Of a stretch of DNA of 64,000 nucleotides, positions 24,943-62,544 are shown piece by piece. The notes under the pieces are model-generated. The model had not been told where the DNA came from and did not search any database. It saw only the letters and a program-made list of their open reading frames with translations. The position numbers and the translations under genes are program-made. Positions within the stretch are counted from its first letter, which is position 1, and every line of letters begins with the position of its first letter. The DNA is from Candidatus Poseidoniales archaeon (lineage in GTDB: Archaea > Thermoplasmatota > Poseidoniia > Poseidoniales > Thalassarchaeaceae). Location of the stretch: assembly GCA_028821675.1 (NCBI GenBank), contig JAPKFG010000001.1, positions 7,890-71,889 of the forward strand. The letters are read 5' to 3'.

Positions 24943-25059
24943 TCTGATTCAACATCCTGCCTGATACTACTTCAGGCCGAAATCTGCGAAACTATTGGCA
25001 CTGTTGAGTGTTCGCCTCCAACGGGCCCTAACGGGCCCGGAATAGATTGAAAGCCGAAG

Positions 25060-25092
25060 GTGCCGAGTGTCGGCATAGCCGACAGGGCGACG
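25060..25092. promoter_or_regulatory. palindromic GC-rich element upstream of second giant surface protein gene
   Basis: aaGGTGCCGAGTGTCGGCAtaGCCGACAgg contains the palindrome TGCCGA-GTG-TCGGCA. It shares GGTGCCG and GTGTCGGCA with the element at 7055-7109, and lies 15-48 nt upstream of the ATG at 25107. Confidence 0.35.
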
Positions 25093-25106
25093 GGAGCGAG
25101 GAATGT

Positions 25107-28100
25107 ATGCGAAAGGTGGCTATTTTTATCATCGCAGTATTGCTTTTTTCCTCTGCACTGCCATTTGCATCTGCGGTGACTGAGACTCAATATTCCGATG
25201 GAAGTTCGACTTTTACGCATGTCTTCAGCCAAACTGGAGATGCCGACACACCCGGTGTGACGTTGCCATACGGAGCCAATGTAGAAAATGTGGAGTTCGA
25301 AGTCGAAGGTTCGGCCTCCACGGTAACCTGGATGAATCGAACAACAGATGCTGATTTCGGGGGGCAAGGACAAACTGGTTCAGGCCAACAGAGTTGGTAC
25401 ATCAATCAAAACGGCTGGTACTACGGATATAAGCAGAATGTGAAAGTTGACAATAATCAAGTCGAACTTCGGCCAACGGACGATACCACATATTGGTCGA
25501 TGAGCAATCAGAACGATATGGCATCATCTACCGGTGGTAGCCTGAATACAACCGGGCAGTATTTCTCATCCGCCGAGGCGGGATTCAACGGAATCACCAA
25601 TACTAGCACAATGAGCACGAGCGGGGGGATCTGGGGCTACATGGGACCTGTCGTCAAGCAGGGCGATGAACTCCACGTGGTTCGCTACTTGAGTGTGTCA
25701 TCGTATGGTGGTTATCAACTGGGTTCAATCAACCGGTACAATGCAACCACAGGAGCCTCTCTTGGAACTGCAACTATCTCGTACAACAACTGTTCGAATC
25801 TCAATGTATACTACCTCACAGACGCGACTAGTGATGGCGAGGGCACGGTTTGGATGACTTCTTTCTATCAAAGTTTGAGCACCTATGCTGGGATTACGAA
25901 ATGGTCGGTGTCTTCCACCGCCAATGGTGTAACCTACACCTGTGATAGTTACTGGGCTACCTTGGAAGTTGGAGGCATATCCATCGACCCTGAAACCAAT
26001 GATATGTACGTAGTACAGCGTACTCGAGCCAGCAACCAATACGACATGGATCTATGGAGAGTGAGTCGCAGCCAACCAAATGTCGCATTGCAGACTTGGA
26101 GCCTAGGTACAATTTCGCCTTCAGGCAGTATGGGTATGGCTTCTTCTTACGTCAAACCCGCTGGACTGTCTGTACAAATGCCGCGAATCGCGGTCAATGT
26201 CTATTGCTACTACTACACATACACTTACTCTTACTGTGATGAAAATCGCTTGTCATGGGTAAACGTCTATCACCAGCGTTCCAATTGGCCTGAGTTGCAA
26301 GGTGAGATTCCCAGTCCCTACGCCATATTAGGCATGGAGAATATTGAGGGTCAATTGGCAGCCACTTGTTTCTACGGCTCAAGCACGGCCTACTGCCCAA
26401 GTCCAACCAGTCGAAAGATCTTGATGACAGGAGGCAGTGCTGCGGATTGGATGGGGACTCCTTCATCCAGCACCGCTACAATCACGTCAAGCATAGAAAC
26501 ACTGAATCGTCCACTCAGTGAATTGAGATTGGGATTGACGGCAACATGGGAACCGGCAGGGACCTCCATAGATTTTGAAATCACCAACGATGGGGGGACC
26601 ACTTGGAAGCGTGCCAACAGTGCGGGGCAGACAATCACATTCGCGAATGCGGGCACCCAATTGGCGTGGCGAGCGTGGCTGAATGGAACGGCCTCAGCGG
26701 CGCCACTGATTGATACGGTGGGGCTTACCTATACTGCAACATACGCGTCCACTGGTCAGTTCAGAATGTACAGTTCATCCACCGCTGCACATCCAGTTGC
26801 TGCTACCGTCTATTGGAATGCATCAACTCCAGGTGGAAGTTCAGTGGATGTCTACTTCAGAGACAGTTCATCTACCTGTACGAGTGGAACCAGAGTCAAT
26901 GTTCCAAGTTCAGGATCGACCGTTTCGTTCACCTCAACGTCCGGATATCTTTCAATTTGTTTTGATTTGGATGCGGGCACGAACAATCAGTATTCTCCTA
27001 TTCTCTACGATGTAAATATTGCAACCTATTCCAATGCGCCACGCGACGTCAAGATTGACATCGGGGGCGATGGATCATACGAGTGGGACTATGATGGCGT
27101 TTTGATTGGGACAACGACCGCACAGTCGTCGTCTAGCAGCGGTCAAAATATGGAGAATGCCTTCAACAATATCGTTCCACAAACTGGTTCAGGAACTATT
27201 GTTGTGCCTGTCAAGGTCCATTCGGCCTCTGCAGGTAAAGTCAAGATTACATCAATGAGCATAGAATACACGATGGTGACGGTCAATCTCGATATCAACT
27301 TTGATGAGAATATGGTTCTCCACGAACGAGGAGACCCCTATGAAATCGTCACAAGACACGTGATTGGTGACGAGGCGTTGAGTATCACCGATGCTGAACT
27401 GACGTTCCTCGCTTCGCCGAATTCAGATGCGCCCAAATTATCGTGGGCTCAAGATGGAACGCTGGTCGATGATGATCCCGAAGATTGGATTATCCCAGAT
27501 CAGAGTGCGACGTGGACGAATCTATCCAACGGTATCTTTGAGATTCATTGGATGTTCCGAGTGACTGACGATTTCCCCGAGCAAAACAATGTCGGATGGC
27601 GGGTTTCATGCACCGATGACAACGGATTCGCCCCTGCAACCCTTTCCACAGGTGCCACTGGCATTGTGGTCAACCAGTCGTATGGCCTGGGTTGGTTCAC
27701 CATCCATGATGTAGAAGGGGAAGTAATCAACGATAATGTGCAGAATGGTGATTGGGTCGTCGGTGGTGAAACCATTCACTTCCAAGGCCAAGTCTGGTTC
27801 GAGGGAACACAAGATGCACCCCTGAACTCAGTATTCGACATCAGAATCGCCCGCAAGGACAGTCAAGGTGATTTCATCTCTTCCACTTGGAAGGACAATT
27901 CAAATCCAAATGGAACATTCTTCATCTCAGTCGCTGTTCCAGACATGGATATTCCCGAAGGTGTGACATTCGAAGTACAGGCTTACAATGTTCGTGACCC
28001 GACCAAGGTCATGCCAACGGACGATTCATGGAGGCGAACGTTGCGAATCGATGATTCAACCCCCGAAATCATCGATTCTTGGCCTGCTGATGGTGACTAT

Positions 28101-34915: not shown

Positions 34916-36199
34916 ATGCTGGACATTCGGATGTTCCGTGAACACGCTGATGTGATTCGCGCAGATCACGACAGACGTGGCCTTTCTCACGATGAGATTG
35001 ATGAGGTTATTCGACTGGATGAGGCGTGGCGAAAAGCCCGATATGATGCCGACCAGCATCGCAAAAAACGCAACGAGGCGGCGCGTGGAATTGCGGCTGC
35101 CAAGAAGGCGGGGGATGATGCTGAATTCCAGAGAATTCGAGCGGAAGTCGACAGCATTGCTGAAGAGATTGAAGCATTGAGTGAAGTTGCTGACGGACAC
35201 GAGGCTGAACGCGATAGAATTCGCATGTCGATTCCAAACGTGCTCCATGCCGATGTACCCGTCGGTGAGGATGAAGGAGGCAATACCCAACACAGCGTTC
35301 ATGGAGAAAAACCAGCCTTCGATTTCGAACCGAAAACACACAACGATCTGATTGAGATGAATCGTTGGGTGGACTTACCAAGAGCAGCGAAGATTGCTGG
35401 AAGTCGCTTCTACTTCCTCAAGGGTGATCTCGCACGAATGGAGTTGGCATTGCAGCAGTACACCGTTGATTTCATCGCAGCTAGAGGATATACATTCGTT
35501 CAACCTCCAATTATGATGAATCGAGAAGCCTATGAGGGAGTTACCGATCTTGCAGACTTTGAATCCGTGATGTACAACATCCAACCCGATGGATATTACA
35601 CAATCGCGACCAGTGAACATCCACTGACAGCGATGTTCATGGATGAGGTGATTGAACCGAGTTTACTTCCCATTAGGATAGTGGGTGTATCTCCCTGCTT
35701 CCGACGTGAAGTCGGGGCGCATGGCCAAGGCGACAAAGGAATATGGCGCGTTCATCAGTTCACCAAAATTGAACAGATTATCATCTCACATCCAGACCAT
35801 TCTTGGGATGCACACGAAGAATTGCTGACCAACTGTGTCGATCTGTGGGATGATCTTGGACTCCATTACGAGGTGGTCAACATCTGTACGGGTGACATGG
35901 GTACTGTAGCAGCGAAGAAGTATGATCTCGAAGCATGGTTGCCGGGGCGTGGAGAATACAAGGAAATCGTCTCCTGTTCGAATTGTACAGACTATCAAGC
36001 CAATCGATTGAGGATGCGATACAGAACCACGGAGGGCAATGCTGCAGTACACACACTCAACTCAACGGCTGTAGCCACAACTCGAGCGTTGGTGGCCATA
36101 ATGGAGCAAAACCAACTAGCAGATGGGCGAGTTCGAATTCCCGATGTCCTACAACCCTACATGAGTGGGCAGGAAATGTTGGAATCCTGCAATTGGTAA
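34916..36199 (+). CDS. serS: seryl-tRNA synthetase
   Basis: The N-terminal coiled-coil is MLDIRMFREHADVIRADHDRRGL. Class II motifs are FRRE (motif 2), GRGEYKEIVSCSNCTDYQANRL, and motif 3 near ATTRALVAIMEQ. Confidence 0.9.
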   Translation: MLDIRMFREHADVIRADHDRRGLSHDEIDEVIRLDEAWRKARYDADQHRKKRNEAARGIAAAKKAGDDAEFQRIRAEVDSIAEEIEALSEVADGHEAERDRIRMSIPNVLHADVPVGEDEGGNTQHSVHGEKPAFDFEPKTHNDLIEMNRWVDLPRAAKIAGSRFYFLKGDLARMELALQQYTVDFIAARGYTFVQPPIMMNREAYEGVTDLADFESVMYNIQPDGYYTIATSEHPLTAMFMDEVIEPSLLPIRIVGVSPCFRREVGAHGQGDKGIWRVHQFTKIEQIIISHPDHSWDAHEELLTNCVDLWDDLGLHYEVVNICTGDMGTVAAKKYDLEAWLPGRGEYKEIVSCSNCTDYQANRLRMRYRTTEGNAAVHTLNSTAVATTRALVAIMEQNQLADGRVRIPDVLQPYMSGQEMLESCNW

Positions 36200-36217
36200 A
36201 TTGATTTTTCAATTGGA

Positions 36218-36685
36218 TTATTCGATTTCTTCTATATCGATTAAGGTAGTGCCAGCATCGACTTGTTCCCCTACTTCATGGTGAATCGCCACAATAGTAC
36301 CGGGGCCATTTGCAGCAATTCGGTGTTCCATCTTCATGGCTTCCATGACGATGAGAGTCTGACCCTCTTCGACTTCCTCACCAATGCTACAGAGGATCTC
36401 GAGAACCTTGCCCGGCATAGGTGCGGTCATTCCCCCTGCATCTGCAGAACCGCCAGCCCCTTGCTCATCAATGGTCAGAACATGAATTCGGCCGTCGAGA
36501 TGAACCCACCAATCATCACCTACTTTCACAGTATGAGCCAACTGTCCGTCCACCCACAATCGATTGGGGCGTGCATCGATCTCAAACGAATGCTCGTTGG
36601 GAACAACCTCGTCGTCGCAGATGGCATCCGCTGAACCGATAGTGATCTGCCAATGACGGCCACTCGAATCTCTCAGGTCAACCAT
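36218..36685 (-). CDS. biotin carboxyl carrier / BT-BCCP C-terminal module of acyl-CoA carboxylase alpha subunit
   Basis: The biotinyl-lysine motif is [17 protein letters not shown]. The ORF is in the same frame as the upstream biotin carboxylase, separated only by TGA plus 3 codons. The TGA lies inside a GAGGTG Shine-Dalgarno. Confidence 0.75.
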
Positions 36686-49155: not shown

Positions 49156-51458
49156 GTGAAGATGTGGATCCATTCGATCTCTCAAAGGCACTGGAAGGAG
49201 CGGCGAAGACCCATCTCGACCCATCCATCGCAAAATTTCGGCTACAGGCCGAATACGAACGAGCGGGGGACCAAGAATCAGCAATTGAAAAAACGCTTTC
49301 TCAATTGAGAAATTCTCAATCAAGATGTGTAATGCTGGGCGTGACTGGGTCCGGCAAGACGTTTGCTATGGCCAACATCATCGAAGCTCTGAACATCCCT
49401 ACACTAATCCTCTCCCACAACAAGACATTGTCACGCCAACTCTGGCAAGAAATGTCTGGATTATTCCCCGATAATGCTGTCGAATATTTCGTTTCACACT
49501 ATGATTACTACCAACCCGAAGCTTACCTGCCAAAGAGAGATCTATACATCGAAAAAGAACTCTCGATGAATGAACGAATCGAACAAGAGCGGTTCTCAAC
49601 AATCGCTTCATTGGTTTCTCGACCGGATGTATTGGCCGTGGCTACAGTTTCAGCAATATACGGCCTCAATCCACCTGAGACATTTCTGCAACAACATGTC
49701 AGATTACACGTGGGACAACAAGTCGAGCCACATGATGTTGTCAAGGAATTGGTTGGATTACAATACCGTAGAGTCACAGGGGAGATTACGCGTGGAGAAT
49801 TGCGCCTGAGAGGCGAAGTTCTAGATTTGTGGATGCCAAGTAGAGACGATCCGTTGCGCATTCGATTCGATTTAGACGGAATCATAAGAATCCAAGTTTG
49901 TGAGGCAGTGTCATGGGAATCAATCGATGAAATCGAGGAAGTGTGGGTTCACCCAAAGGAATTCTTCATGACTGATCCAGATAGATTTGAAAGCGCCCTT
50001 GATGATATTGAATTTGAACTGCAACAGCGAATCGATTTCTTCGAAAAAGCGGGAAAAGAATTGGAAGCGCATCGACTTGAATCCAAGACCCGATACGATT
50101 TGGATTTACTGAGAGAAATTGGTCATTGCCGTAGTATCGAGAATTATTCCATGCACTTTGATGGGCGCACATTTGGAGAACGCCCATACTGTCTCCTCGA
50201 CTTCTTTGCTGCCTGTGCACAAACCTTCCATGGTTCCAAGGATAAGTTCCTCGTGATAATGGATGAGAGTCATGTTACATTACCACAATTGGGAGGCATG
50301 TATCACGGAGATAAGGCGAGGAAAGAGAATCTGATAGAACATGGATTCAGATTGCCATCGGCCGCGGATAACCGACCTTTAATGGGGCATGAATTCCAAT
50401 CTTTAGTTCCTCAGATACTCTATGTGAGTGCGACGCCAGGTGAACGTGAATTGCGACAACTGTGTGAAATCACTGGACAGTCTGTACCAAAAGCAGATCC
50501 TAAGGAAAAAAGGAAACCGCTGATGAAAGATGCGCTGGGTGAAATTCAAGGAATCTCTCGAATGGAAATTCGGCCCACAGGATTATTGGATCCATCCATT
50601 GAAGTACGTCCTACGGAAGGTCAAGTGCAAGATCTACTCGATGAGATTACATCATGCGCACAGAAGAATGAACGAGTCTTAGTCACTGTCATGACAATCA
50701 AATTCGCTGAGGAAGTGGCCGATTATCTTCAGCGTATGGGTGTGAAGGCACACTACCTCCATTCTGAAATTGACACATTGGAACGAAGTGAAATCATCAA
50801 AGCACTAAGGATTGGTCACATTGATGTAATCGTTGGAATCAATCTCTTGCGAGAAGGCCTTGATCTTCCCGAAGTCAGTCTTGTGGCAATCTTCGATGCT
50901 GACAAGGAAGGATTCCTTCGCAATGAACGAAGTCTATTACAAACCATTGGACGGGCTTCGCGAAATCAAAATGGTCGAGTCATCCTATACGCCAACACCA
51001 TGGGCAGAGCGATGGAATCTGCAATTTCACAAACGATTGAACGACGGCAGAAACAAATTGAGCATAATGAACTACATGGAATCACACCGAAAACCATCGA
51101 AAAGCCGCTTCCGGTGATGGGCATTGAGGCCGAAGAACTGCTGGCAGGAACAGCAGGCAAAGGGATGACCGGGGGCAAGAGATTCGTCGGCGGGTTTACC
51201 GGAAAAACTGGGAAGAAAGGAGATGAGGGTTTGGTCAAGAAATTCGATCTCGGCGCAGGCTCTTGGGGAGATGATATCGTAACCAATCTATCTCAACCAA
51301 CATCCGACAATATACCAGATGATTTAGGCGATTCTGAATCCCGATTAATAGACCGTCTGGGGAAGGAGATGAATCAAGCCGCAGCACGACTTGACTTTGA
51401 GAAAGCAGCCAAATTAAGGGATAGGATATTCCAATTAGAAAACTCAAATTCCAATTGA
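49152..51458 (+). CDS. uvrB: excinuclease ABC subunit B
   Basis: GVTGSGKTF Walker A, helicase motifs, and a C-terminal UVR domain (LDFEKAAKLRDRIFQLE). The start ATGA overlaps the ubiA stop. A Gly/Lys-rich insert precedes the UVR domain. Confidence 0.9.
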   Translation: MSEDVDPFDLSKALEGAAKTHLDPSIAKFRLQAEYERAGDQESAIEKTLSQLRNSQSRCVMLGVTGSGKTFAMANIIEALNIPTLILSHNKTLSRQLWQEMSGLFPDNAVEYFVSHYDYYQPEAYLPKRDLYIEKELSMNERIEQERFSTIASLVSRPDVLAVATVSAIYGLNPPETFLQQHVRLHVGQQVEPHDVVKELVGLQYRRVTGEITRGELRLRGEVLDLWMPSRDDPLRIRFDLDGIIRIQVCEAVSWESIDEIEEVWVHPKEFFMTDPDRFESALDDIEFELQQRIDFFEKAGKELEAHRLESKTRYDLDLLREIGHCRSIENYSMHFDGRTFGERPYCLLDFFAACAQTFHGSKDKFLVIMDESHVTLPQLGGMYHGDKARKENLIEHGFRLPSAADNRPLMGHEFQSLVPQILYVSATPGERELRQLCEITGQSVPKADPKEKRKPLMKDALGEIQGISRMEIRPTGLLDPSIEVRPTEGQVQDLLDEITSCAQKNERVLVTVMTIKFAEEVADYLQRMGVKAHYLHSEIDTLERSEIIKALRIGHIDVIVGINLLREGLDLPEVSLVAIFDADKEGFLRNERSLLQTIGRASRNQNGRVILYANTMGRAMESAISQTIERRQKQIEHNELHGITPKTIEKPLPVMGIEAEELLAGTAGKGMTGGKRFVGGFTGKTGKKGDEGLVKKFDLGAGSWGDDIVTNLSQPTSDNIPDDLGDSESRLIDRLGKEMNQAAARLDFEKAAKLRDRIFQLENSNSN

Positions 51459-51465
51459 TTATTTT

Positions 51466-51496
51466 GACCCGCCAGTTCAAGTGAAGGTGGCGGGTC
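51466..51496. terminator. hairpin after uvrB, overlapping the GTG-extended DHS ORF
   Basis: GACCCGCC / GGCGGGTC 8-bp stem with a 15-nt loop, 8 nt after the uvrB TGA. It argues that DHS starts at the ATG at 51511. Confidence 0.35.
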
Positions 51497-51510
51497 GCCA
51501 AGCCGTTCCC

Positions 51511-52488
51511 ATGCCGATTGACCGCGATGATTTCGATGTCCCTGTCGAAGACTATGATTTCAGTCAAATTAGTGATGTGACCTCATTAATTGACCAAATG
51601 GCCAATGCAGGGGGGTTTACTGCAACCAAACTCGCCCATGCCAGAGATATTTTGAGGGCTTCAATCGATAAAACGCAGAACGAGGGAGTTCTGAATTGGC
51701 TTTCATTTCCAGCATGTCTTTGTGCGACAGGGTCTCGAGGATTTTTCGTCGAGGCAATCAAACGCAAGGCATTCAATGTCATCATCACCACTTGTGGAAC
51801 ACTGGATCATGATATTGCGCGAACCTACCAAGATTACTATCATGGGGCCTTTGAGTTAGATGATACCGAACTCGGTGAACAAGGATTGAACCGTCTAGGC
51901 AACGTCATCGTACCGAACGAATGTTATGGAGAGATTATAGAAAAATCTGTACTTCCTTGGATTCAAGAAATAGAAGATGAACGGCGAAAGATGAATCCAG
52001 AAAATCCTTGGAGAGGGTTTGGAAGTATCGAATTGTGCTGGGCGTTCGGAGATCGTATTGATGACGAAAGCAGTTTGCTGCATTGGGCGGCAAAGCACAG
52101 AATTCCCATCGTAGTCCCAGGCCTATCGGATGGCTCTGTAGGTGCGCAGTTATTCATGCACCGACAGCGAAGTCCTGATTTCATGATTGATTTCCTTGCC
52201 GATGAACAAGTCCTCTCTGATCTCACATGGACATGTGAAGAAAGTCATGCGTTAATGGTGGGAGGAGGCATCTCAAAACATCATGTCATCTGGTGGAATC
52301 AATATAGAGATGGATTGGATTCTGCCGTTGCAATAACCACAGCCCCTGAGCATGATGGAAGCCTATCGGGTGCTCGATTACGAGAAGCGATTTCATGGGG
52401 AAAGATTCGACCAGAAGCACCTCAGGTGACAGTGGAAGGTGATGCGAGCGTTCTACTTCCGTTGCTCGGTTCAGATCTGTTCAGATGA
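51511..52488 (+). CDS. dys: deoxyhypusine synthase (canonical, with catalytic lysine)
   Basis: VGGGISKHH (catalytic Lys and His) and APEHDGSLSGARLREAISWGKIR match eukaryotic/archaeal DHS. The NAD-binding region is TTCGTLDHDI. Confidence 0.85.
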   Translation: MPIDRDDFDVPVEDYDFSQISDVTSLIDQMANAGGFTATKLAHARDILRASIDKTQNEGVLNWLSFPACLCATGSRGFFVEAIKRKAFNVIITTCGTLDHDIARTYQDYYHGAFELDDTELGEQGLNRLGNVIVPNECYGEIIEKSVLPWIQEIEDERRKMNPENPWRGFGSIELCWAFGDRIDDESSLLHWAAKHRIPIVVPGLSDGSVGAQLFMHRQRSPDFMIDFLADEQVLSDLTWTCEESHALMVGGGISKHHVIWWNQYRDGLDSAVAITTAPEHDGSLSGARLREAISWGKIRPEAPQVTVEGDASVLLPLLGSDLFR

Positions 52489-52962
52489 GTGGGCAATGCA
52501 TTCCATCAGCCCCACCCGCATGGCCGTCATTGGCCTCCAACCATCCGTCCCACATTCAACCAAAGTATCGTGCAAAGGGCCTAAGTTCGGGCGGCGACGT
52601 TCGCCACTATACCTTACCGCAGCTGGCGATGGGACATCGCTGAGAGATTGTGATGTATGAGAGTGTTTGACGGCGTTCTGAAATCTAGACCATAGCCCCT
52701 TTATTTCATCCACAACCATCTGTTGTGTCCATGCCCTGCGGCCACATAACTCAAAGGTTCCAGTCACTTCATGTTCAGTGAGAATTCGTTTTGCAATCTC
52801 TGCATCACGAAGATGAACCCAATGATAGATTGTATCATCATTTTGAGGTTCATTTCCTGCTAATATTGTAGAGACCCAGTGATTAATCGGGCCATCTCCA
52901 TCTGGAGAATAGACATCTATGAAATGAATATTGAGGGATTCGGACATCCGGCACACTTCCAC
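52471..52962 (-). CDS. hypothetical protein
   Basis: 163-aa ORF with no motif recognised. Likely start at MSESLNIHF (52947). Confidence 0.35.
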   Translation of the reverse strand: MEVCRMSESLNIHFIDVYSPDGDGPINHWVSTILAGNEPQNDDTIYHWVHLRDAEIAKRILTEHEVTGTFELCGRRAWTQQMVVDEIKGLWSRFQNAVKHSHTSQSLSDVPSPAAVRYSGERRRPNLGPLHDTLVECGTDGWRPMTAMRVGLMECIAHSSEQI

Positions 52963-54485
52963 TAATCGTCACGGTTTGCGTCGTGGAGGACGAGGGCTTT
53001 TCGAATTATATCGATAATCAAATCAATCTCTTCGGAAGTGATGGCAAAGTGCGGGGTGAAACGCAAGGCGTTAATTCCACCATGGATAATTCCAAGGCCA
53101 ATTTTCCGGCATGTTTCTTCGATTTGACCGAAACCGACAACTGGGTGTGTCTCTGGATTTAATTCGGCACAACACAGCAAACCAGTACCCTGGACCTTGA
53201 TAATTACCTCTGGAAACTCTGCAGCCAATTGTTCGAGTTTTTCAACCAACTCTACCCCTCGGTCACGGATATTTTGCCTCAGTTCAGGGGTGATTTGATC
53301 AAGAACCGCGATGGCCGTCTCAAGCGCTCTAGGGTTCGTCGTCATCGTGTTACCATAAATTCCAACCACGTAGAGTTCCGCGGCTCTCTGAGTCAATCCC
53401 AGTACTGAAAGTGGATATTGGCCAGCATTCAGTGCCTTTGACCATGTTTCCAAATCCGGGGCTTCACATGTCTCAAATCCAGGGTAATCTATGATTGAAA
53501 GAGCCCCCTGACCACGCAACCCTGCTTGAATCGAGTCAACTATGAACATACTGCCATGTTCAAGCGTCAATCGACGAGCCTCATCATAGAATTCACGTGT
53601 AACACACTGTCCAGGATTACCCTCCCCCTGAACTGGTTCAATCGCCATTAACTCGATGAAAAATTGTTCAGTTTCTGCACGTGAAAATACAGCCTGTAGG
53701 GCTTCAACATCGTTCAAAGGAACCAACAACAAATTGTCTCTGTCTCTGAAAGAGGCGAGGTTGCGGTCGTATCCCTCTTTACAGGAGTGCGAAATCTGAG
53801 CCGGTCGATCTGTACGCCCATGAAATGCATGTTCAACAGCAAGAAGTTTGATGGGTTTACCTTCGTGTCTGCCACCAGCACTGGTGTGTTGATTTGCATT
53901 CACATCAGCGATCCTCAAACCAACCGTGACAGATTCTGAGCCACTATTCATACAGATGAATTTGGTAAATGGACAATTACCACGAGTGTGACCCAATTCG
54001 ATTTGAAGTCGATCTGAAAGACGTTTTTGGCTGAACGATGGTGTCATTACATTAGCCATAACCCAATTATTTGACATCGAATCGATGACTGCATCGGGGC
54101 CATGTCCACCACCCAACATACCATAGGAACCATTGTCATGAAGCACAGCTCCTTTTGAGGTGATAATCCAAGGTCCACGCGCAGCAATCGCAACATATGG
54201 ATTGATGGTTGCTGCGGAATAGAAATTGATGTAATTGGATTGAACCGAAGAGACAAGGGTGGCTTCATCTTGAGCTAAATATTCCAGACCGACTTCTTCA
54301 ACCAAGCCTGCAAAAGCAATTGATGCTTCATCAATGGCTCGAATCAATTGTGGATTGATGGTGCAAAATCTCTCGATGACGTCATCAGGAAGGCCTTGGG
54401 TTTGAGCAGCAGAACCGTCGGCAAGGCGACGAATCTCCATCAGACGCTCGAGCATATTCGAATCGAATCGGAGGGCACCCATCAA
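52962..54485 (-). CDS. class III PLP-dependent aminotransferase (omega-aminotransferase family)
   Basis: Fold-type I class III features: GLGIIHGG.NALRFTP near the C-terminus, the DSIQAGLRGQG region (cf. DEVQTGFGRTG), and a PLP-Lys region near SKALNAG. The substrate cannot be assigned. Confidence 0.65.
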   Translation of the reverse strand: MMGALRFDSNMLERLMEIRRLADGSAAQTQGLPDDVIERFCTINPQLIRAIDEASIAFAGLVEEVGLEYLAQDEATLVSSVQSNYINFYSAATINPYVAIAARGPWIITSKGAVLHDNGSYGMLGGGHGPDAVIDSMSNNWVMANVMTPSFSQKRLSDRLQIELGHTRGNCPFTKFICMNSGSESVTVGLRIADVNANQHTSAGGRHEGKPIKLLAVEHAFHGRTDRPAQISHSCKEGYDRNLASFRDRDNLLLVPLNDVEALQAVFSRAETEQFFIELMAIEPVQGEGNPGQCVTREFYDEARRLTLEHGSMFIVDSIQAGLRGQGALSIIDYPGFETCEAPDLETWSKALNAGQYPLSVLGLTQRAAELYVVGIYGNTMTTNPRALETAIAVLDQITPELRQNIRDRGVELVEKLEQLAAEFPEVIIKVQGTGLLCCAELNPETHPVVGFGQIEETCRKIGLGIIHGGINALRFTPHFAITSEEIDLIIDIIRKALVLHDANRDD

Positions 54486-54805
54486 TGTTCTCTGTAAGAA
54501 TGGTCAATCTATTGGCAATCTTAACAGTATAACACCATATAATTTTCAATTATGAAAACAATTTCGTATGTCTGACGGAGTCAATTTTTATATTGGCTGA
54601 TAATGTATTGTTATCCGCCTTTTTCAATTAAAAATTAACAAATTAACATTTGGGCGTAATATCGAATATCCAATTGGAAACTATAGGATTATCAGCCTTT
54701 TTCAATTGGACAACTGATTGTATTTGTCAATGGTATGGTTTAATAGCCCAATGGACCCGTGGGTCGACAAGGCAGAATGGGATGCTACAACAGGAGATGA
54801 AAATT

Positions 54806-55393
54806 ATGGGAGACGACAATTACAGAATACAGGAACTTCTTCAACGAGAAGTGTACGTTGGAAACAACCTCGTTGGAACAATTGTAGGGGAACGATATCA
54901 CCCTAACGAAGATCGCGTACGCTCGATGCGACTATTGGTTCAACCAAACGTGGCGGAAACGTATATGCGAAAACCAGCGGAATACGGACCACTATCGAAA
55001 GAATTGATTCATTCAATTCAGGATGATGGGTCTGTCAAACTTTCAAAATCAATGAGAGAGTTGCAAAGACGTTGGCGAGATACAGTTCGAATCGAAGAAC
55101 AACTTTACGCCCCCGATGAACTTCTGGATCGAGCTGTGCTAGATGATGATGGGCTAGAACTAGGCGTCGTCATTGCCCTCGTGAAGGTCAAGCGAACATA
55201 TCGAGGGATTACCGTGAAACTACGTTCACCGGTCCGTCGACGATACGCTCTAGGCGAGACCATCGACATTCCAGTTACGGCCCTGGCACGAACGCGTGCT
55301 CGTTTGGATGAGATTGTACTCTCTCGTACATACGAAAAACTGCGCTCTCTGCCCAGTTACATCCAGATTAACGAGGGCTTTCTAGAGGATTGA
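54806..55393 (+). CDS. hypothetical protein, possibly PRC-barrel-like
   Basis: The start was chosen at MGDDNYRIQ, with GGAG 10 nt upstream. The ORF-track start at 54650 would run through the AT-rich promoter region. The domain call is weak. Confidence 0.35.
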   Translation: MGDDNYRIQELLQREVYVGNNLVGTIVGERYHPNEDRVRSMRLLVQPNVAETYMRKPAEYGPLSKELIHSIQDDGSVKLSKSMRELQRRWRDTVRIEEQLYAPDELLDRAVLDDDGLELGVVIALVKVKRTYRGITVKLRSPVRRRYALGETIDIPVTALARTRARLDEIVLSRTYEKLRSLPSYIQINEGFLED

Positions 55394-57940: not shown

Positions 57941-57954
57941 AAATAGTGAGGTTA

Positions 57955-57989
57955 TTTTCAATTGAGAAATTGAAACTTCCAATTGAAAA
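57955..57989. promoter_or_regulatory. palindromic TTTTCAATTG / CAATTGAAAA motif pair upstream of infB
   Basis: ttttcaattgagaaattgaaa has 8-nt inverted arms (tttcaatt / aattgaaa). A second copy, ccaattgaaaaa, lies 15 nt further on, and GAGGTG plus the ATG follow. Confidence 0.35.
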
Positions 57990-58003
57990 ATAGAGGTGCT
58001 ATT

Positions 58004-59803
58004 ATGGCTGAAAATAACCGTCGTCAACCCATTGTGGCTGTTCTAGGGCATGTCGACCATGGAAAAACATCTGTCTTGGACTACATCCGTAGTCTAGGTC
58101 AAGATCGACAATCAAGCGTCATGGCTAGAGAAGCCGGGGGAATTACACAACACATAGGTGCGACAGAGGTACCTGCAAGGCTGTTGAATGAATTCTGTAG
58201 CCCACTCATGGGTGGGAAGGAATTCTTGTCACCGGGTCTACTCTTCATTGACACACCAGGTCACCATTCGTTCTCGACCTTGCGCACACGAGGTGGTTCC
58301 CTAGCAGATATCGCGATTCTAGTCATTGATCTGATGGAAGGATGCCAACCACAGACATTAGAATCGATTCGAATCTTGAAGAATGCAAAGACTCCTTTCG
58401 TTGTTTGTGCCAACAAAGTAGATCGAATCCATGGATGGAGGTCTGTAAACGGACGCTCTGCTGCTGAAGCAATGAATGATCAAGATTCGTATGCTATTGG
58501 CTTGTTTGAGCAGAAATTCTGGCACCTTGTAGGCCAATTTGGTGAGCAAGGGTTCAATCTTGATATGTACAACAAAATTTCTGATTTTACTCAAAATATA
58601 CCCTTGGTACCTTGTTCTGCAAAAGAGGGTGAAGGGATGCAGGATCTGCTCGCAACCACCATTGGTCTGGCTGAAAAATTCCTCGATGAACAACTCTCTG
58701 ACGTCGATGGGGCTTCAGAGGGAACTGTACTCGAGATGAAAGAAGAACGTGGGCTTGGAAAAACGCTGGATGTAATATTGTATCGTGGTCAAATTTCCAA
58801 AGGCGATGAAATTGTAGTCGCAACTAATCAGGGCCCGGTGGTCACCAGAGTGCGAGGACTGTTCAGGCCTCGAGGCATGGCAGAAATGCGTGATGCTGGA
58901 GATCGCTGGGATGCGATTGAAACCGTTGAGGCTGCTGCAGGATTGAAATTGGCGGCTCCAGATCTAGAAGGTGTTCTCGCAGGTACGACACTCCGAATTC
59001 TACCAGAAGATGCTGGACTACGACAACAAGCTATTGATGCGACCGAGGATGAATCTGAGATTAGCATCAAATTGGATGAAGAAGAAGGCATTGTCATCAA
59101 AGCCGATACGCTTGGAGGGCTTGAGGCGCTAGCATTCGAATTACACAACCTCGATAATCCAATCCCAATCCGAAGCGCAGGGATAGGACCCGTCAATAAA
59201 CGCGATTTGCGCGGGGCAGAAAACGCAGCAGATCCGCTGCAGCGAGTCATTCTTGCATTTAGTACAAGTGTACAAACCGAAACTGCTGAAGAACTTGAGA
59301 AAGAAGATTGTGAAGTAGAGTATATTGGTTCAGACATCATCTATCATATTCTAGAACAATTTGAGACTTGGACTGAAAATCGGAAGATTGAGTTGGAAGA
59401 GGAAAAAAGAGAAAAAATTGTTTACCCTGGAAAAATCAAAATCCTCGCTGATCACATCTTTCGACGATCAGGACCTGCGGTTGTTGGTGTTCGAATCCTA
59501 GGGGGACGACTCCACATCGGACAACGCCTTCTAACAATAGATGGAAATAATGTTGGCCAGATTAAATCCATTCGAACTGGAGATACTTCGCACAAGGAGG
59601 CGAAGCAAGGAGAGGAGGTTGCGATTGCGATCAAAGGGGCAACAGTCGGACGCGGAATCGATGAAGAGGATATTCTGCTCGTAGATGTACCCGCAAGTCA
59701 TGCCCGAAGACTTCGAAAACTAGAGCTCACTTCTTCCGAACAAGAGATTCTAGATGAACTCACGGCACTGCATCGTTCAGAGAACCATTTTTGGGGACGT
59801 TAA
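58004..59803 (+). CDS. infB: translation initiation factor aIF5B (IF2 homolog)
   Basis: PIVAVLGHVDHGKTS (G1), DTPGH (G3), NKVD (G4) and the aIF5B domain order. The start was chosen at the ATG at 58004 with GAGGTG upstream. The ORF-track start at 57983 is a TTG. Confidence 0.9.
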   Translation: MAENNRRQPIVAVLGHVDHGKTSVLDYIRSLGQDRQSSVMAREAGGITQHIGATEVPARLLNEFCSPLMGGKEFLSPGLLFIDTPGHHSFSTLRTRGGSLADIAILVIDLMEGCQPQTLESIRILKNAKTPFVVCANKVDRIHGWRSVNGRSAAEAMNDQDSYAIGLFEQKFWHLVGQFGEQGFNLDMYNKISDFTQNIPLVPCSAKEGEGMQDLLATTIGLAEKFLDEQLSDVDGASEGTVLEMKEERGLGKTLDVILYRGQISKGDEIVVATNQGPVVTRVRGLFRPRGMAEMRDAGDRWDAIETVEAAAGLKLAAPDLEGVLAGTTLRILPEDAGLRQQAIDATEDESEISIKLDEEEGIVIKADTLGGLEALAFELHNLDNPIPIRSAGIGPVNKRDLRGAENAADPLQRVILAFSTSVQTETAEELEKEDCEVEYIGSDIIYHILEQFETWTENRKIELEEEKREKIVYPGKIKILADHIFRRSGPAVVGVRILGGRLHIGQRLLTIDGNNVGQIKSIRTGDTSHKEAKQGEEVAIAIKGATVGRGIDEEDILLVDVPASHARRLRKLELTSSEQEILDELTALHRSENHFWGR

Positions 59804-60931: not shown

Positions 60932-61038
60932 TCTTCAGCAAACGATTGACGACCACTCGATTGTGCGAGTGTTTGAAAGAGGGGCTTGTCTGACGACGTT
61001 GTGTTCTCCCGGAGGTTGTTGATTTGAATCCTTACAAG

Positions 61039-61992
61039 ATGGTTATCGCAGTCACCAATCAAAAAGGTGGTTGTGCAAAGACGACCACGGCGGTCAATAT
61101 TGCCACGGCCTTGGCCAAAGGGGACCAAAACAATGGTTTCCCGCCTGCGAAAGTCTTGCTTGTAGACCTAGATCCTCAAGGAAACATATCTACATCTTTT
61201 GGAATTGATAAGAGCAAGTTGGATAGAACTGTGTACGATCTTCTCATGAATGATCTAGGAGAAGAATTGCCAATCCTTGAGGACTATCTTATCGCACCAG
61301 AAATGATTACTGACTGGATGCATCAAGCATGGAGAAGAAGTCATCCTGATAAGAAAAATCCACCGAAAACGGTGGGTGTGAGGAATCTGTGGATTCTTCC
61401 AAGCAATATCCAGTTATCTGGTGCAGAAATAGAGTTGGCGACAAGAATTGGTCGAGAAACACGCCTGAAAGAAGGGTTAGGTCCAGCCTACGATGAGTTC
61501 GATTACATCATCATCGATACGCCCCCCAGCCTTGGCCTCCTCACAATCAATGCATTGGCAGCAGCGAACTGGGTATTGATTCCTGTTCAAACAGAATACT
61601 ACGCCCTAGAAGGCATGAGTCAATTGATGAATTCGATTAAATTGGTTCAGCGGCGAATAAATCCCAATCTGAAATTATTTGGAATCGCCCTAACTATGTA
61701 TCAAAAAAGCAAACTCTGCAACACGGTGGAAACCGAAGTTCGCCGATATTTTCCGACCCACGTTTTCAAAACCGTAATTCCCAGAAACATCGATGTCGCA
61801 GCAGCTGCACTTGATGGAGCACCCATCACGCTTCTCAAGAAACCGACAAATGCAAGGGGGGCAAACAAAGGCAGTCATGCGTACTGGGCACTTGCAAAGG
61901 AAGCACATCGTCGCGTGCTTAAGATTCGACAAAAATACGGGATTAACGAACCGAGTCGACTTCAGCAACATCGACTCCGAACCTCTGATTAA
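61039..61992 (+). CDS. parA: ParA/Soj/MinD-family partition ATPase with C-terminal extension
   Basis: MVIAVTNQKGGCAKTTTAVNIATALA is a deviant Walker A, with GGCAKT in place of GGVGKT. The box DLDPQGN is also present, and so is the Walker B region YDEFDYIIIDTPPSLG. The start was chosen at the ATG at 61039. The ORF-track start at 61024 is TTG. Confidence 0.8.
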   Translation: MVIAVTNQKGGCAKTTTAVNIATALAKGDQNNGFPPAKVLLVDLDPQGNISTSFGIDKSKLDRTVYDLLMNDLGEELPILEDYLIAPEMITDWMHQAWRRSHPDKKNPPKTVGVRNLWILPSNIQLSGAEIELATRIGRETRLKEGLGPAYDEFDYIIIDTPPSLGLLTINALAAANWVLIPVQTEYYALEGMSQLMNSIKLVQRRINPNLKLFGIALTMYQKSKLCNTVETEVRRYFPTHVFKTVIPRNIDVAAAALDGAPITLLKKPTNARGANKGSHAYWALAKEAHRRVLKIRQKYGINEPSRLQQHRLRTSD

Positions 61993-62066
61993 CCTCACAA
62001 AAGACCGACACGCTCAAATTACTTCGGGCAGGTCTTCGCATCGGTGACAACATGGGTTCTCCGAAC

Positions 62067-62294
62067 ATGACATCTGTGAGTGTCTCCTTTGATGTAAGGA
62101 GACAACTGAATTCAATGCGAGCAATGAGCAACCACGACAGTGTGGATGAACTCCTAGCGCAGGTGCTACAAGAATATCGAATGGCGCAACTTCGGGCTGA
62201 GGCAGATAAACTACGAAGTCGGCTCCGAGATATTGGCCAAACAGATGTCGAAGCACTGGTTGAACGATTAGGTCATTCTCCTTACGGTGGTTGA
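62067..62294 (+). CDS. small ribbon-helix-helix-like protein downstream of parA (candidate centromere-binding/ParG-like or antitoxin-like)
   Basis: The N-terminal beta-strand MTSVSVSFDVRRQL is followed by two predicted helices (VDELLAQVLQEY, LRAEADKLRSRLRD). An alternative ATG lies at 62052. Confidence 0.4.
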   Translation: MTSVSVSFDVRRQLNSMRAMSNHDSVDELLAQVLQEYRMAQLRAEADKLRSRLRDIGQTDVEALVERLGHSPYGG

Positions 62295-62544
62295 ATTGAA
62301 GGGACAACCTCCAACTTATTCTGTCGATGCGCCCACACTTTTTCGTGGTTTGATGGATGGAGGAAGCAATGCTAGAATCCTTCTTGATTTGGCTGCGGCA
62401 AATGAAATCGAACTGCACGCTGAGGCAGGGGACTGGAATGATCTTTTGTGGCTCATTTCCACTGCACTAAAAGAAACTGGTGGGGCTTACTCTGGGGAAG
62501 ATTATGCTTCACTACGGAACAATATGCCAGTGGTATTCCACTGA
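62287..62544 (+). CDS. small hypothetical protein overlapping the RHH gene by 8 nt
   Basis: 85-aa ORF with no motif recognised. Its position fits the second gene of a two-gene cassette. Confidence 0.3.
   Translation: MVELKGQPPTYSVDAPTLFRGLMDGGSNARILLDLAAANEIELHAEAGDWNDLLWLISTALKETGGAYSGEDYASLRNNMPVVFH

What the first reader, a model, noticed from the sequence alone, without database searches (positions are those of the whole stretch)
54486..54805. Long AT-rich divergent intergenic region with repeated CCTTTTTCAATT boxes and CAATTG palindromes
The 320-nt spacer between the aminotransferase gene (minus) and the PRC-barrel-like gene (plus) is the longest AT-rich non-coding stretch in an otherwise tightly packed window. 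It carries an exact 12-nt direct repeat cctttttcaatt (54618-54629 and 54696-54707). It also has ttttcaattatgaaaa (54543-54558, a near-palindrome) and two CAATTGGA boxes (54670, 54703). The same 10-mer TTTTCAATTG recurs at 36206-36215 (the serS/BCCP convergent gap) and 57955-57964. Its reverse complement is at 57980-57989, upstream of infB. An exact 10-mer is expected about 0.1 times in 64 kb. All copies are intergenic, which points to a cis-regulatory site or a miniature repeat family and not to chance.
Basis: seen in the sequence. Interest (0 to 1): 0.5.

Follow-up and report, generated by a model that had tools for sequence, protein, structure and literature searches.

The report
Conserved promoter operator boxes in marine archaea
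The AT-rich spacer is a strongly conserved two-way promoter region of an uncultured Marine Group II archaeon, and its repeated TTTTCAATTGAAAA boxes belong to a previously undescribed paired DNA motif found just upstream of the TATA box of many unrelated genes across this archaeal order, most likely the docking site of an unidentified regulatory protein.

Summary
The window comes from a Marine Group II archaeon (Ca. Poseidoniales, Thalassarchaeaceae).

The spacer lies between two diverging genes: a class-III aminotransferase and a lineage-specific PRC-barrel protein. About 230 nt of it are far more conserved across 16 related species than silent codon positions. There is no sign of an RNA structure.

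It holds two kinds of element:
- Four copies of a 14-16 bp palindrome, TTTTYCAATTGRAAAA.
- Three copies of ATTATCNGCC, found almost only at this locus.

The palindrome is not the generic BRE/TATA. Elsewhere it occurs as pairs 20-21 bp apart, with the proximal box 0-8 nt upstream of a TATA-like element. These pairs precede unlinked, functionally diverse genes in both MGIIa and MGIIb. They include aIF5B, deoxyhypusine synthase, acyl-CoA carboxylase, a GHMP kinase and a TtuA-like gene, and one pair lies inside uvrB. The boxes move with their genes.

Best reading: an order-wide operator for an unknown dimeric DNA-binding regulator, with this spacer as its densest and most complex site. A replication origin, a centromere, an RNA, a mobile repeat and chance are all less likely. 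This is a new member of a known kind, of moderate interest.

The parts
54483..54805 (.). Divergent intergenic region between the class-III aminotransferase (minus strand, ATG at 54482) and the PRC-barrel gene hyp195 (plus strand, ATG at 54806).
   Evidence: Sequence and ORFs. G+C is 33%, the lowest in the window. It is conserved in all 50 related loci.
54542..54557 (.). Box 1 (ATTTTCAATTATGAAA), a degenerate CAATTA copy of the palindrome. On the minus strand it abuts the TATA-like element of the aminotransferase promoter.
   Evidence: Repeat family. It reads CAATTG in most relatives.
54535..54542 (-). TATA-like element TTATATGG of the aminotransferase promoter. This assignment is inferred.
   Evidence: Read. 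It lies about 55 nt upstream of the ATG at 54482. No transcription start data are available.
54580..54604 (-). Composite element C1, inverted: GTCAATTTTTATATTGGCTGATAAT. It combines a half-box with GGCTGATAAT, the reverse complement of ATTATCAGCC.
   Evidence: Inverted repeat I10, block conservation of 0.85-0.88, alignment.
54610..54635 (+). Composite element C2: GTTATCCGCC plus box 2 (TTTTTCAATTAAAAAT).
   Evidence: 16.9 bits. Together with C1 it forms GGCNGATAAT-N5-ATTATCNGCC, and the N position does not covary between the arms.
54666..54681 (.). Box 3 (ATATCCAATTGGAAAC).
   Evidence: 17.2 bits. Conserved in the alignment.
54688..54713 (+). Composite element C3: ATTATCAGCC plus box 4 (TTTTTCAATTGGACAA). 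This is the most conserved block of the spacer.
   Evidence: Majority fraction 0.94-0.99. One search scores box 4 at 22.0 bits.
54737..54749 (+). GGTTTAATAGCCC, the conserved TATA-like element of the hyp195 promoter. This assignment is inferred.
   Evidence: Nearly invariant in the 20-sequence alignment. The distant clade has ATATATAAGTGCC at the same place.
54775..54805 (+). Conserved 5' leader block (GAATGGGATGC ... GGAG) ahead of the hyp195 start codon.
   Evidence: (GGATGGGATGC and AGGAGA are conserved).
54806..55393 (+). hyp195, a lineage-restricted protein with a PRC-barrel C-terminal domain; the N-terminal half is not confidently modelled. It is the gene always found downstream of the element cluster.
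57954..57990 (.). Box pair in the ndk/aIF5B gap, centres 21 bp apart with a half-box between. It ends 15 nt before the aIF5B ATG at 58005.
   Evidence: 19.5 and 19.2 bits. Conserved in all close-clade loci and in L143.
51427..51462 (.). Box pair at the 3' end of uvrB, upstream of deoxyhypusine synthase (start 51481). The proximal box is followed by ATTATTTT.
   Evidence: 11.8 and 17.3 bits. Conserved in the close clade and in L113, L145 and L091.
49277..49312 (.). In-frame box pair inside uvrB, about +130 to +155 from its start.
   Evidence: The codons forming the boxes are invariant in 6 lineages while neighbouring silent sites vary, and the pair is absent in the L058/L060 clade.
36185..36220 (.). 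Box pair at the convergent ends of serS and the BCCP gene. Its role there is unexplained.
   Evidence: 21.7 bits for the box at 36205.

Best explanation
The spacer is the shared control region of two diverging promoters in a Marine Group II archaeon. One promoter drives the aminotransferase operon and the other drives the PRC-barrel gene hyp195.

The repeated TTTTCAATT(G) words are halves of a 14-16 bp palindrome, TTTTYCAATTGRAAAA. I propose that this palindrome is the operator of an unidentified dimeric DNA-binding regulator conserved throughout the Poseidoniales.

At ordinary target promoters, two such palindromes sit 20-21 bp apart, that is two helical turns, so both face the same side of the DNA. 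The proximal one ends 0-8 nt upstream of the TATA box, where TFB normally contacts DNA. Two dimers would bind cooperatively there and either help or hinder TBP/TFB recruitment. From the position just upstream of TATA I lean towards activation or dual control.

The spacer under study is the densest site. It has four boxes, plus three copies of a second element, ATTATCNGCC (half-site TGATAAT), which is almost exclusive to this locus. That second element probably binds a second, dedicated factor.

Shown: the motif, its pairing, its conservation, its position and its spread across unlinked genes. Inferred: protein binding, the identity of the TATA boxes and transcription start sites, and the direction of regulation.
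For: Conservation:
- The spacer block 54577-54805 has a majority-base fraction of 0.70-0.99 across the window sequence plus 16 close relatives. Four-fold degenerate sites of the adjacent gene give 0.57, with pairwise identity of only 34-81% (alignment).

DNA motif rather than RNA:
- The arms GGCNGATAAT and ATTATCNGCC do not covary, and RNAalifold gives a covariation term of +0.43.
- Folding z-scores are -0.87 and -1.03.
- Rfam gives only weak matches, with E of 1.5 or more.

Enrichment outside genes:
- TYCAATTGRA occurs 1.75 times per kb in non-coding DNA against 0.06 per kb in coding DNA, over 489 kb of window plus loci.
- A position weight matrix gives 14 hits in the window against 3.1 in shuffles. 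All 7 hits of 16 bits or more lie in spacers or within about 50 nt upstream of a start codon.

Pairing:
- Four exact CAATTG pairs lie 20-21 nt apart in the window. From the density of 45 sites in 64 kb, about 0.06 such pairs are expected.

Orthologous conservation:
- The pairs upstream of aIF5B and of deoxyhypusine synthase are present in every close-clade locus.

Spread to unlinked genes:
- A pattern scan of metagenomes returned at least 19 Poseidoniales loci among 120 hits.
- They carry pairs upstream of acyl-CoA carboxylase beta, a GHMP kinase, a TtuA-like protein, a metal ATPase and a hypothetical protein. A triple box lies near grpE-dnaK.

Boxes travel with genes:
- In L095, uvrB and the synthase gene are unlinked, yet each keeps its box.

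Geometry:
- In 8 of 8 promoters, the proximal box is followed within 0-8 nt by an AT-rich TATA-like element.

Not the generic promoter:
- Other window genes have ordinary TTTATA-type elements without the box.

Second element:
- 70 of 74 ATTATCNGYC copies in 49 loci lie in the 400 nt upstream of hyp195.

Precedents for archaeal activator sites just upstream of BRE/TATA, including shared sites between divergent promoters:
- GvpE UAS (PMC2241852), EarA (PMC5512572), TrmBL1 (PMC4706686).
Against: - No binding protein is identified and no candidate regulator gene is linked to the sites.
- The target genes have no common function, so this could be a general architectural or chromatin protein rather than a classical regulator.
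- Two site classes do not fit a promoter operator. One is the pair in the gap between the convergent serS and BCCP genes. The other is the conserved pair inside uvrB at about +130.
- At the hyp195 promoter itself, the proximal box is 30 nt from the conserved TATA-like element, not 0-8 nt.
- The roughly 30 nt between boxes 2 and 3 are equally conserved but match neither element, so the region does more than hold these two motifs.
- TATA boxes and transcription starts are inferred from sequence only.
- Counts over related loci repeat orthologous sites and are not independent.
- The metagenome scan was truncated at 120 hits.
Confidence: 0.65

Rival explanations
1. The spacer is a chromosomal replication origin. 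On this reading the long composite repeats (TTCAATTGAAAAA-GGCTGATAAT) act as origin recognition boxes, the short CAATTG boxes act as mini-ORBs, and an AT-rich stretch between them unwinds.
For: - It is the most AT-rich and most conserved spacer in the window.
- There are three long composite repeats, one of them inverted, plus short core repeats. This parallels Pyrococcus oriC, where 34-bp ORBs and 13-bp mini-ORBs coexist and a second cluster lies inside a neighbouring gene (PMC1904270).
- The core matches the canonical mini-ORB TTCCAGTGGAAAT at 9 of 13 positions. This is my own alignment against the consensus quoted.
- Short boxes cluster within about 10 kb around the spacer in the close clade.
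Against: - No orc1/cdc6 or whiP gene was found in the window, about 54 kb to the left and 9 kb to the right of the spacer. None appears in about 7 kb more.
- There is no G-string, and the dyad has one extra central base. The sister lineage uses canonical GTTCCAGTGGAAATGG-AGGGGT next to orc1 (PMC4153887).
- CAATTG box pairs occur at unlinked loci upstream of diverse genes and move with those genes.
- The sequence between the repeats is conserved and contains GGGCG, unlike a simple unwinding element.
- Cumulative GC skew shows no turn at 54.5 kb.
Confidence: 0.07
2. The boxes are binding sites for an abundant architectural protein. This could be a nucleoid-associated protein, or a centromere-binding partner of the nearby ParA/Soj-like ATPase. 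On this reading they organise or segregate the chromosome rather than regulate particular promoters.
For: - 16-bp palindromes occur both in coding and in non-coding DNA (uvrB, UbiD). One pair lies between convergent genes.
- The target genes are functionally unrelated.
- A ParA-family ATPase lies 6 kb away, followed by an ORF that looks like a ribbon-helix-helix protein.
- In the close clade, five box clusters lie within 10 kb.
Against: - Most sites have a fixed position just upstream of TATA-like elements.
- Sites are spread over unlinked loci and over both MGII families.
- The distant clade keeps the ParA gene but lacks the small ORF, and it has boxes only upstream of hyp195.
- No boxes flank the ParA operon itself.
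Confidence: 0.1
3. The conserved block encodes a small RNA, or a structured 5' leader of hyp195, and the repeats are RNA stems such as GGCUGAUAAU/AUUAUCAGCC followed by U5 terminators.
For: - Conservation is continuous over about 180 nt, including sequence between the boxes.
- There is a 10-bp perfect inverted repeat followed by T5.
- A conserved TATA-like TTTTTATATT lies at 54585-54594.
Against: - The stem's variable position does not covary across loci, and the RNAalifold covariation term is positive at +0.43.
- Folding energy is not better than shuffles on either strand.
- There is no Rfam match below E=1.
- The distant clades keep the boxes but change their order and number.
- T5 at +5 of the putative transcript would terminate it.
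Confidence: 0.04
4. CAATTG is the target of a DNA methyltransferase (it is the MunI/MfeI recognition sequence). On this reading the paired sites are epigenetic switches, analogous to clustered GATC sites read by SeqA or Dam-sensitive regulators in bacteria.
For: - The invariant core is a 6-bp palindrome identical to a known restriction-modification site (my own knowledge).
- Pairs sit at whole numbers of helical turns: 20-21 and 32 bp.
- CAATTG is over-used for Gln-Leu dipeptides, 19 of 44 against about 7 expected.
Against: - Conservation extends well beyond the hexamer, into the T-rich and A-rich flanks. That fits a protein reading 14-16 bp.
- No methyltransferase gene was seen in the window.
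- The site is not depleted, so no matching restriction activity is implied.
- Methylation cannot be tested here.
Confidence: 0.05
5. The boxes are copies of a miniature mobile or REP-like repeat family, or they are chance matches in AT-rich DNA.
For: Short palindromic repeats in spacers are typical of REP or MITE elements, and AT-rich words recur by chance more often than a uniform model predicts (one search gives 0.58 expected).
Against: - 0 of 100 shuffles reach the observed count.
- Sites are orthologous and conserved across genera while silent sites are saturated.
- Only the boxes, not the sequence between them, are shared between sites.
- There are no terminal inverted repeats with target duplications.
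- In-gene copies are made by codon choice, not by insertion.
Confidence: 0.03

Closest known systems
Archaeal upstream activating sequences next to BRE/TATA: GvpE UAS of haloarchaeal gas-vesicle promoters (PMC2241852), EarA sites of fla promoters (PMC5512572), Ptr2 sites (from memory)
   Same: - Short conserved sequence blocks lie immediately upstream of BRE/TATA, often as two parts or two copies.
- In the gvp case, one element set is shared by two divergent promoters separated by a short spacer.
   Different: - Here the unit is a 14-16 bp perfect palindrome, repeated at 20-21 bp.
- It is used at many unrelated promoters across a whole order.
- The binding protein is unknown.
- The divergent spacer is much longer (323 nt) and carries a second element type.
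TrmBL1/Tgr and the Thermococcales glycolytic motif TATCAC-N5-GTGATA (PMC4706686)
   Same: - An inverted repeat with a 5-nt spacer: GATAAT-N5-ATTATC here.
- For TrmBL1, the effect depends on position relative to BRE/TATA.
- It is a regulon-type motif recognisable by comparative genomics.
   Different: - The half-site order is reversed (TGATA...TATCA here, TATCA...TGATA there) and the sequence differs.
- The ATTATCNGCC element is confined to one locus rather than a regulon.
- No TrmB-family gene is linked to it.
Tandem palindromic operators bound by a multimer, e.g. bacterial ARG boxes (two 18-bp palindromes, centres about 21 bp apart) or archaeal Lrp-family arrays (from memory)
   Same: AT-rich palindromes in pairs with centre-to-centre spacing of two helical turns, which implies cooperative binding on one face of the DNA.
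   Different: - The sequence is unrelated.
- These families were not tested here, and no ArgR or Lrp gene is implicated.
- This is an analogy of mechanism only.
Archaeal replication origins with ORB and mini-ORB repeats (PMC1904270, PMC4010727, PMC4153887)
   Same: - An AT-rich conserved spacer.
- Long repeats sharing a core with shorter repeats, with one long repeat inverted.
- Extra core repeats inside neighbouring genes.
- The core resembles TTCCAGTGGAAAT at 9 of 13 positions.
   Different: - No initiator gene is adjacent.
- There is no G-string.
- The dyad is one base longer.
- Core repeats occur at unlinked promoters and move with genes.
Sulfolobus Orc1-2 DNA-damage response element ANTTTC (PMC9738581)
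   Same: - Each half of the palindrome (ATTTTC / GAAAAT) fits ANTTTC.
- A DNA-repair gene (uvrB) carries a conserved box pair.
- MGII has an Orc1-2-type paralogue that groups near Crenarchaeota (PMC3914693).
   Different: - A 6-nt match is weak evidence.
- The element here is a strict palindrome with a CAATTG core.
- No orc1-2 gene was available to examine.
- Most target genes are not repair genes.

Membership tests
Transcription-factor operator / upstream activating sequence of archaeal promoters | A short specific sequence motif, commonly with dyad symmetry. | tested here: met
   A weight matrix built from 236 training words (both strands of each CAATTG site) gives the consensus TTTTTCAATTGAAAAA, with an invariant CAATTG core and graded T/A flanks.
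Transcription-factor operator / upstream activating sequence of archaeal promoters | A constrained position relative to the core promoter (BRE/TATA or start site). | tested here: met
   In 8 of 8 promoters, the proximal box ends 0-8 nt before an AT-rich TATA-like element. The TATA elements are inferred from sequence and start sites are not mapped. The hyp195 promoter is an exception, at 30 nt.
Transcription-factor operator / upstream activating sequence of archaeal promoters | Conservation at orthologous promoters beyond the neutral rate. | tested here: met
   Boxes score 0.93-0.99 against 0.57 at four-fold degenerate sites. The aIF5B and DHS pairs are present in all close-clade loci.
Transcription-factor operator / upstream activating sequence of archaeal promoters | The same motif at several unlinked promoters (a regulon). 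| tested here: met
   Pairs lie upstream of acyl-CoA carboxylase, a GHMP kinase, a TtuA-like gene, a metal ATPase and hyp224 in Poseidoniales contigs that do not overlap the window.
Transcription-factor operator / upstream activating sequence of archaeal promoters | A demonstrated binding protein with an effect on transcription. | not testable with these tools
   The lineage is uncultured and no candidate regulator was identified.
Archaeal replication origin (oriC with ORB repeats) | An adjacent initiator gene (orc1/cdc6 or whiP). | tested here: not met
   No Orc1/Cdc6 or WhiP domain in any window ORF of 100 aa or more. None in the 7 kb beyond the window end.
Archaeal replication origin (oriC with ORB repeats) | Repeats matching the ORB consensus, that is dyad TTCCAGTGGAAA plus a G-string. 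| tested here: not met
   The core matches 9 of 13 positions with one extra central base, and GGCTGATAAT replaces the G-string. This compares with the consensus.
Archaeal replication origin (oriC with ORB repeats) | An AT-rich unwinding element flanked by inverted repeats. | tested here: inconclusive
   The region is 30% G+C and one composite repeat is inverted. However, the inverted pair abuts directly (5-nt gap), and the inter-repeat sequence is conserved and includes GGGCG.
Archaeal replication origin (oriC with ORB repeats) | Repeat clusters confined to the origin region. | tested here: not met
   CAATTG pairs occur at unlinked loci. Only ATTATCNGYC is specific to this locus.
Archaeal replication origin (oriC with ORB repeats) | A strand-composition switch or replication-profile peak. 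| tested here: inconclusive
   There is no turn in cumulative GC skew at 54.5 kb within the 64-kb window. Whole-genome skew and read-depth profiles could not be computed.
Structured non-coding RNA / riboswitch / sRNA | A conserved secondary structure with compensatory changes, or a match to a curated family. | tested here: not met
   RNAalifold covariation term +0.43, with 3 of 24 pairs showing any double change. Folding z-scores are -0.87 and -1.03. The best Rfam E-value is 1.5.
Generic archaeal BRE/TATA core promoter | Present upstream of most genes in the genome. | tested here: not met
   In the 100-nt upstream regions of the 51 listed window genes, the box appears upstream of only four genes: the aminotransferase, hyp195, DHS and aIF5B. 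Elsewhere the TATA-like words I could pick out by eye are of the TTTATA/TATATA type, e.g. L7Ae, M17 peptidase, grpE.
Miniature mobile element (MITE / REP-like repeat) | Terminal inverted repeats, target duplications, copies sharing internal sequence, and variable presence between relatives. | tested here: not met
   Only the boxes are shared between sites. Sites are orthologous across genera. In-gene copies arise from codon choice. No target duplications were found.

The most novel reading that the evidence does not exclude
The spacer upstream of the PRC-barrel (CdpB-like) gene could be a cell-cycle control hub bound by an Orc1-type protein. It would be either a non-canonical replication origin or the main target of an Orc1-2-like global regulator.

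On this reading the long composite repeats are divergent ORBs and the scattered CAATTG pairs are mini-ORB-like sites. That would couple replication or DNA-damage status to genes for cell division, repair (uvrB) and translation in Marine Group II archaea.
Probability: 0.08. Interest if true: 0.75.

Novelty: new member of a known kind. Interest (0 to 1): 0.45.

Why it matters
Marine Group II archaea are among the most abundant archaea in the surface ocean, but they are uncultured and nothing is known about how they control their genes.

A sharply defined paired motif, conserved across the order and sitting next to the TATA box, gives a first handle on a regulon. It can be scanned in the thousands of available genomes. 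It can be correlated with diel and bloom metatranscriptomes. It can also serve as bait for in-vitro binding screens to find the regulator.

The motif also flags the lineage-specific PRC-barrel gene, a possible cell-division factor, as the most heavily controlled gene of the set. It further shows a rare case of an operator pair kept inside a coding sequence (uvrB) by codon choice.

Tried and rejected
- RNA element: folding of both strands, an alignment fold of 14 sequences and an Rfam E-value search gave no structure signal.
- Bacterial-type promoter and terminator scan: uninformative, because the organism is an archaeon.
- Tandem-repeat finder: it reported only an 8-nt AATTAACA triplet. The 78-nt periodicity is not a tandem array.
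- Origin hypothesis: I looked for orc1/cdc6 in the whole window and 7 kb beyond and found none.
- Walking out of the window with exact-protein look-ups failed for the two edge genes.
- The 1.95-Mb contig carrying a hyp195 homologue was not among the places returned, so whole-genome skew and site distribution could not be computed.
- Centromere idea: ParA-like plus RHH-like ORFs lie nearby. However, the RHH ORF is absent in the distant clade and no boxes flank that operon.
- hyp195 as the binding protein: its model shows a PRC barrel, not a DNA-binding fold.
It was repeated with admissible sequences at moderate confidence (pLDDT 66).
- Literature: no paper in the held library mentions the palindrome in an archaeal context or an MGII origin. 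The Methanothermobacter mini-ORB paper (PMC519113) is not held, so my recollection of its 13-bp repeat is unverified and is not used as evidence.
Full report
**What is there**

The window comes from an archaeon. It encodes L7Ae, S28e, L24e, nucleoside diphosphate kinase, aIF5B and deoxyhypusine synthase. The nearest database proteins are named Candidatus Poseidoniales / Thalassarchaeaceae, which is Marine Group II b.

The finding lies between a class-III aminotransferase on the minus strand and a 195-residue hypothetical protein on the plus strand. The aminotransferase spans 52962-54482 and most likely starts at the ATG at 54482. The hypothetical protein spans 54806-55393. After it come tRNA-Ile, ribose-phosphate pyrophosphokinase and the L7Ae-S28e-L24e-ndk-aIF5B cluster.

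**Checking the observation**

CAATTGGA starts at 54671, not 54670.
- The direct repeat is really 19 nt long, and TTTTCAATT[A/G] occurs three times exactly 78 nt apart.
- TTTTCAATTG occurs five times in the window against 0.58 expected from dinucleotide shuffles. None of 100 shuffles reaches five.
- One copy, at 49282-49291 on the minus strand, was missed. It lies inside uvrB, so the statement that all copies are intergenic is not correct.
- The spacer is the lowest-G+C stretch of the window: 30-33% against 49%.

**The spacer is under strong selection as DNA, not as RNA**

Fifty related loci from species-level genomes all carry the same gene order. In the window sequence plus sixteen close species, the four-fold degenerate sites of the adjacent gene are nearly saturated. 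Their majority-base fraction is 0.57, and pairwise identity to the window is 34-81%. The spacer block 54577-54805 scores 0.70-0.99, with the boxes at 0.93-0.99.

The tempting stem GGCUGAUAAU/AUUAUCAGCC does not covary. The fourth base of each arm changes independently in different species. The alignment fold has a positive covariation term. Neither strand folds better than shuffles. Rfam finds nothing below E=1.5.

**Two kinds of element**

1. A palindrome with consensus TTTTTCAATTGAAAAA. It has an invariant CAATTG core and graded T-rich and A-rich flanks. The spacer holds four copies, at 54542-57, 54620-35, 54666-81 and 54698-713.
2. ATTATCNGCC, with half-site TGATAAT. It occurs as an inverted pair GGCNGATAAT-N5-ATTATCNGCC (54595-54619) and a third copy (54688-54697). 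Each copy is joined to a box, forming 23-25 bp composites.

This second element is essentially private to this locus. Of 74 copies in 49 loci (421 kb), 70 lie in the 400 nt upstream of the 195-residue gene. More distant clades, at 60-65% protein identity, keep both elements but in different numbers and order.

**The palindrome is used elsewhere, in pairs, next to TATA**

- In the window, the matrix finds 14 sites against 3.1 in shuffles. All seven strong sites lie in spacers or just upstream of start codons.
- Over 489 kb of window plus loci, the core is about 29 times denser outside genes than inside. Orthologous sites are counted repeatedly in that figure.
- Four exact CAATTG pairs lie 20-21 nt apart in the window, where about 0.06 would be expected.
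- The pairs before aIF5B (57954-57990) and before deoxyhypusine synthase (51427-51462) are present in every close-clade species.

I used the single metagenome scan on the pair pattern. Among the 120 hits returned from all environments, at least 19 are Poseidoniales contigs. Several are orthologues of the window sites. Others are unlinked:

- pairs upstream of acyl-CoA carboxylase beta;
- a GHMP kinase;
- a TtuA-like PP-loop protein;
- a P-type metal ATPase;
- a hypothetical protein;
- a triple box near grpE-dnaK.

In one lineage uvrB and the synthase gene are no longer neighbours, yet each keeps its box. So the boxes belong to genes, not to a place on the chromosome.

In eight of eight promoters, the proximal box ends 0-8 nt before an AT-rich TATA-like element, and the distal box lies two helical turns further upstream. 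Other genes of the window have ordinary TATA-like elements without the box, so this is not the generic BRE/TATA.

**How it most likely works**

A 14-16 bp perfect palindrome implies a dimeric reader. Two palindromes with centres 20-21 bp apart place two dimers on the same face of the helix, which suggests cooperative binding. The position of the proximal site, immediately upstream of TATA where TFB contacts DNA, is where archaeal activators act. Examples are the GvpE UAS, EarA sites, Ptr2 and upstream TrmBL1 sites (PMC2241852, PMC5512572, PMC4706686). A repressor that overlaps BRE is also possible.

I therefore read the box pair as the operator of an unidentified regulator conserved across the order. 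The spacer in question would be its most elaborate target: four boxes serving two diverging promoters, combined with a second, dedicated element. Protein binding, the TATA assignments, the start sites and the sign of regulation are all inferences.

**What does not fit**

- A pair sits in the 18-nt gap between the convergent serS and BCCP genes.
- A pair sits inside uvrB at about +130. There the codons GCA ATT GAA ... CAA TTG GAA AAT are invariant in six lineages while neighbouring silent sites vary. A clade lacking the boxes uses other codons and residues.
- At the hyp195 promoter, the proximal box is 30 nt from the conserved TATA-like element.
- The roughly 30 nt between boxes 2 and 3 are as conserved as the boxes themselves.
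- The target genes share no obvious function, which leaves room for a global or architectural protein.

**Rivals**

*Replication origin.* I took this seriously. The spacer is AT-rich and has long and short repeats sharing a core, with one long repeat inverted. The core resembles the mini-ORB at 9 of 13 positions. Pyrococcus also has a second ORB cluster inside a neighbouring gene (PMC1904270).

Against it:
- no initiator gene lies within the window or 7 kb beyond it;
- there is no G-string;
- the sister lineage uses canonical ORBs next to orc1 (PMC4153887);
- there is no skew turn;
- above all, the box pairs are spread over unlinked promoters.

*Centromere or nucleoid-protein site.* This was prompted by a ParA/Soj-like ATPase and an RHH-like small ORF 6 kb away. 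The same dispersal argues against it, as does the absence of the small ORF in the distant clade.

*Mobile repeat and chance.* These are excluded by orthology, by conservation and by the shuffles.

*Methylation at CAATTG.* This cannot be tested here.

**The neighbouring gene**

**Verdict**

This is a real, conserved cis-regulatory region. The motif is, as far as the held literature shows, undescribed. It is nevertheless a new example of a familiar kind of thing: a transcription-factor operator array.

Confidence in the operator reading is 0.65. Interest is moderate. It offers the first tractable regulon in an abundant uncultured archaeal order, and it includes an unusual in-gene operator pair and a very heavily controlled putative cell-division gene.

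Noticed in passing
[not shown]
   Followed up: partly
window 61024-62544: A ParA/Soj-family ATPase (322 aa, deviant Walker A KGG motif) follows the MoxR ATPase. Two small ORFs come after it, of 80 and 85 aa. The first looks like a ribbon-helix-helix protein from its sequence, which would make a SegAB or ParA-plus-centromere-binding-protein type cassette. The small ORFs are missing in the distant clade (L058, L060).
   Followed up: partly
window 49277-49312; L095, L113, L119, L145, L051: uvrB keeps an in-frame pair of CAATTG boxes at about +110 to +150 of its coding sequence in six lineages. The pair is maintained by invariant codon choice.
   Followed up: yes
window, all genes: Gln-Leu dipeptides are encoded as CAATTG in 19 of 44 cases. 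About 7 would be expected from single-codon usage. In helical proteins, heptad spacing of Gln-Leu gives 21-nt CAATTG pairs, as in UbiD and the uvrB C-terminus.
   Followed up: partly
window 58005-59803 and loci L005-L020: aIF5B is only 30-48% identical between species whose neighbouring genes stay 65-90% identical. This is unusually fast divergence, or a domain replacement, in a core translation factor.
   Followed up: no
window 8354-10622 and 51481-52488: There are two deoxyhypusine-synthase-family genes. One sits in a cluster with agmatinase and S-adenosylmethionine decarboxylase, suggesting polyamine or homospermidine-type chemistry. The other matches the deoxyhypusine synthase equivalog.
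   Followed up: no
L058 7328-7543; L060 7318-7515: The distant clade carries a small Hc1 (histone H1-like, PF07432) gene between deoxyhypusine synthase and the aminotransferase operon. The window lacks it.
   Followed up: no
window 36185-36220: A strong box pair lies in the 18-nt gap between the convergent serS and biotin-carboxyl-carrier genes, where no promoter is expected.
   Followed up: no
L168 1249-1450: An unrelated, very AT-rich metagenome contig (24% G+C) holds a tandem array of CAATTG-type boxes with a 27-nt period. The organism and function are unknown.
   Followed up: no
window 1902-7031 and 25047-30227: Two giant predicted surface proteins of 1709 and 1726 aa, with PA14/laminin-G and CARDB domains.
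   Followed up: no
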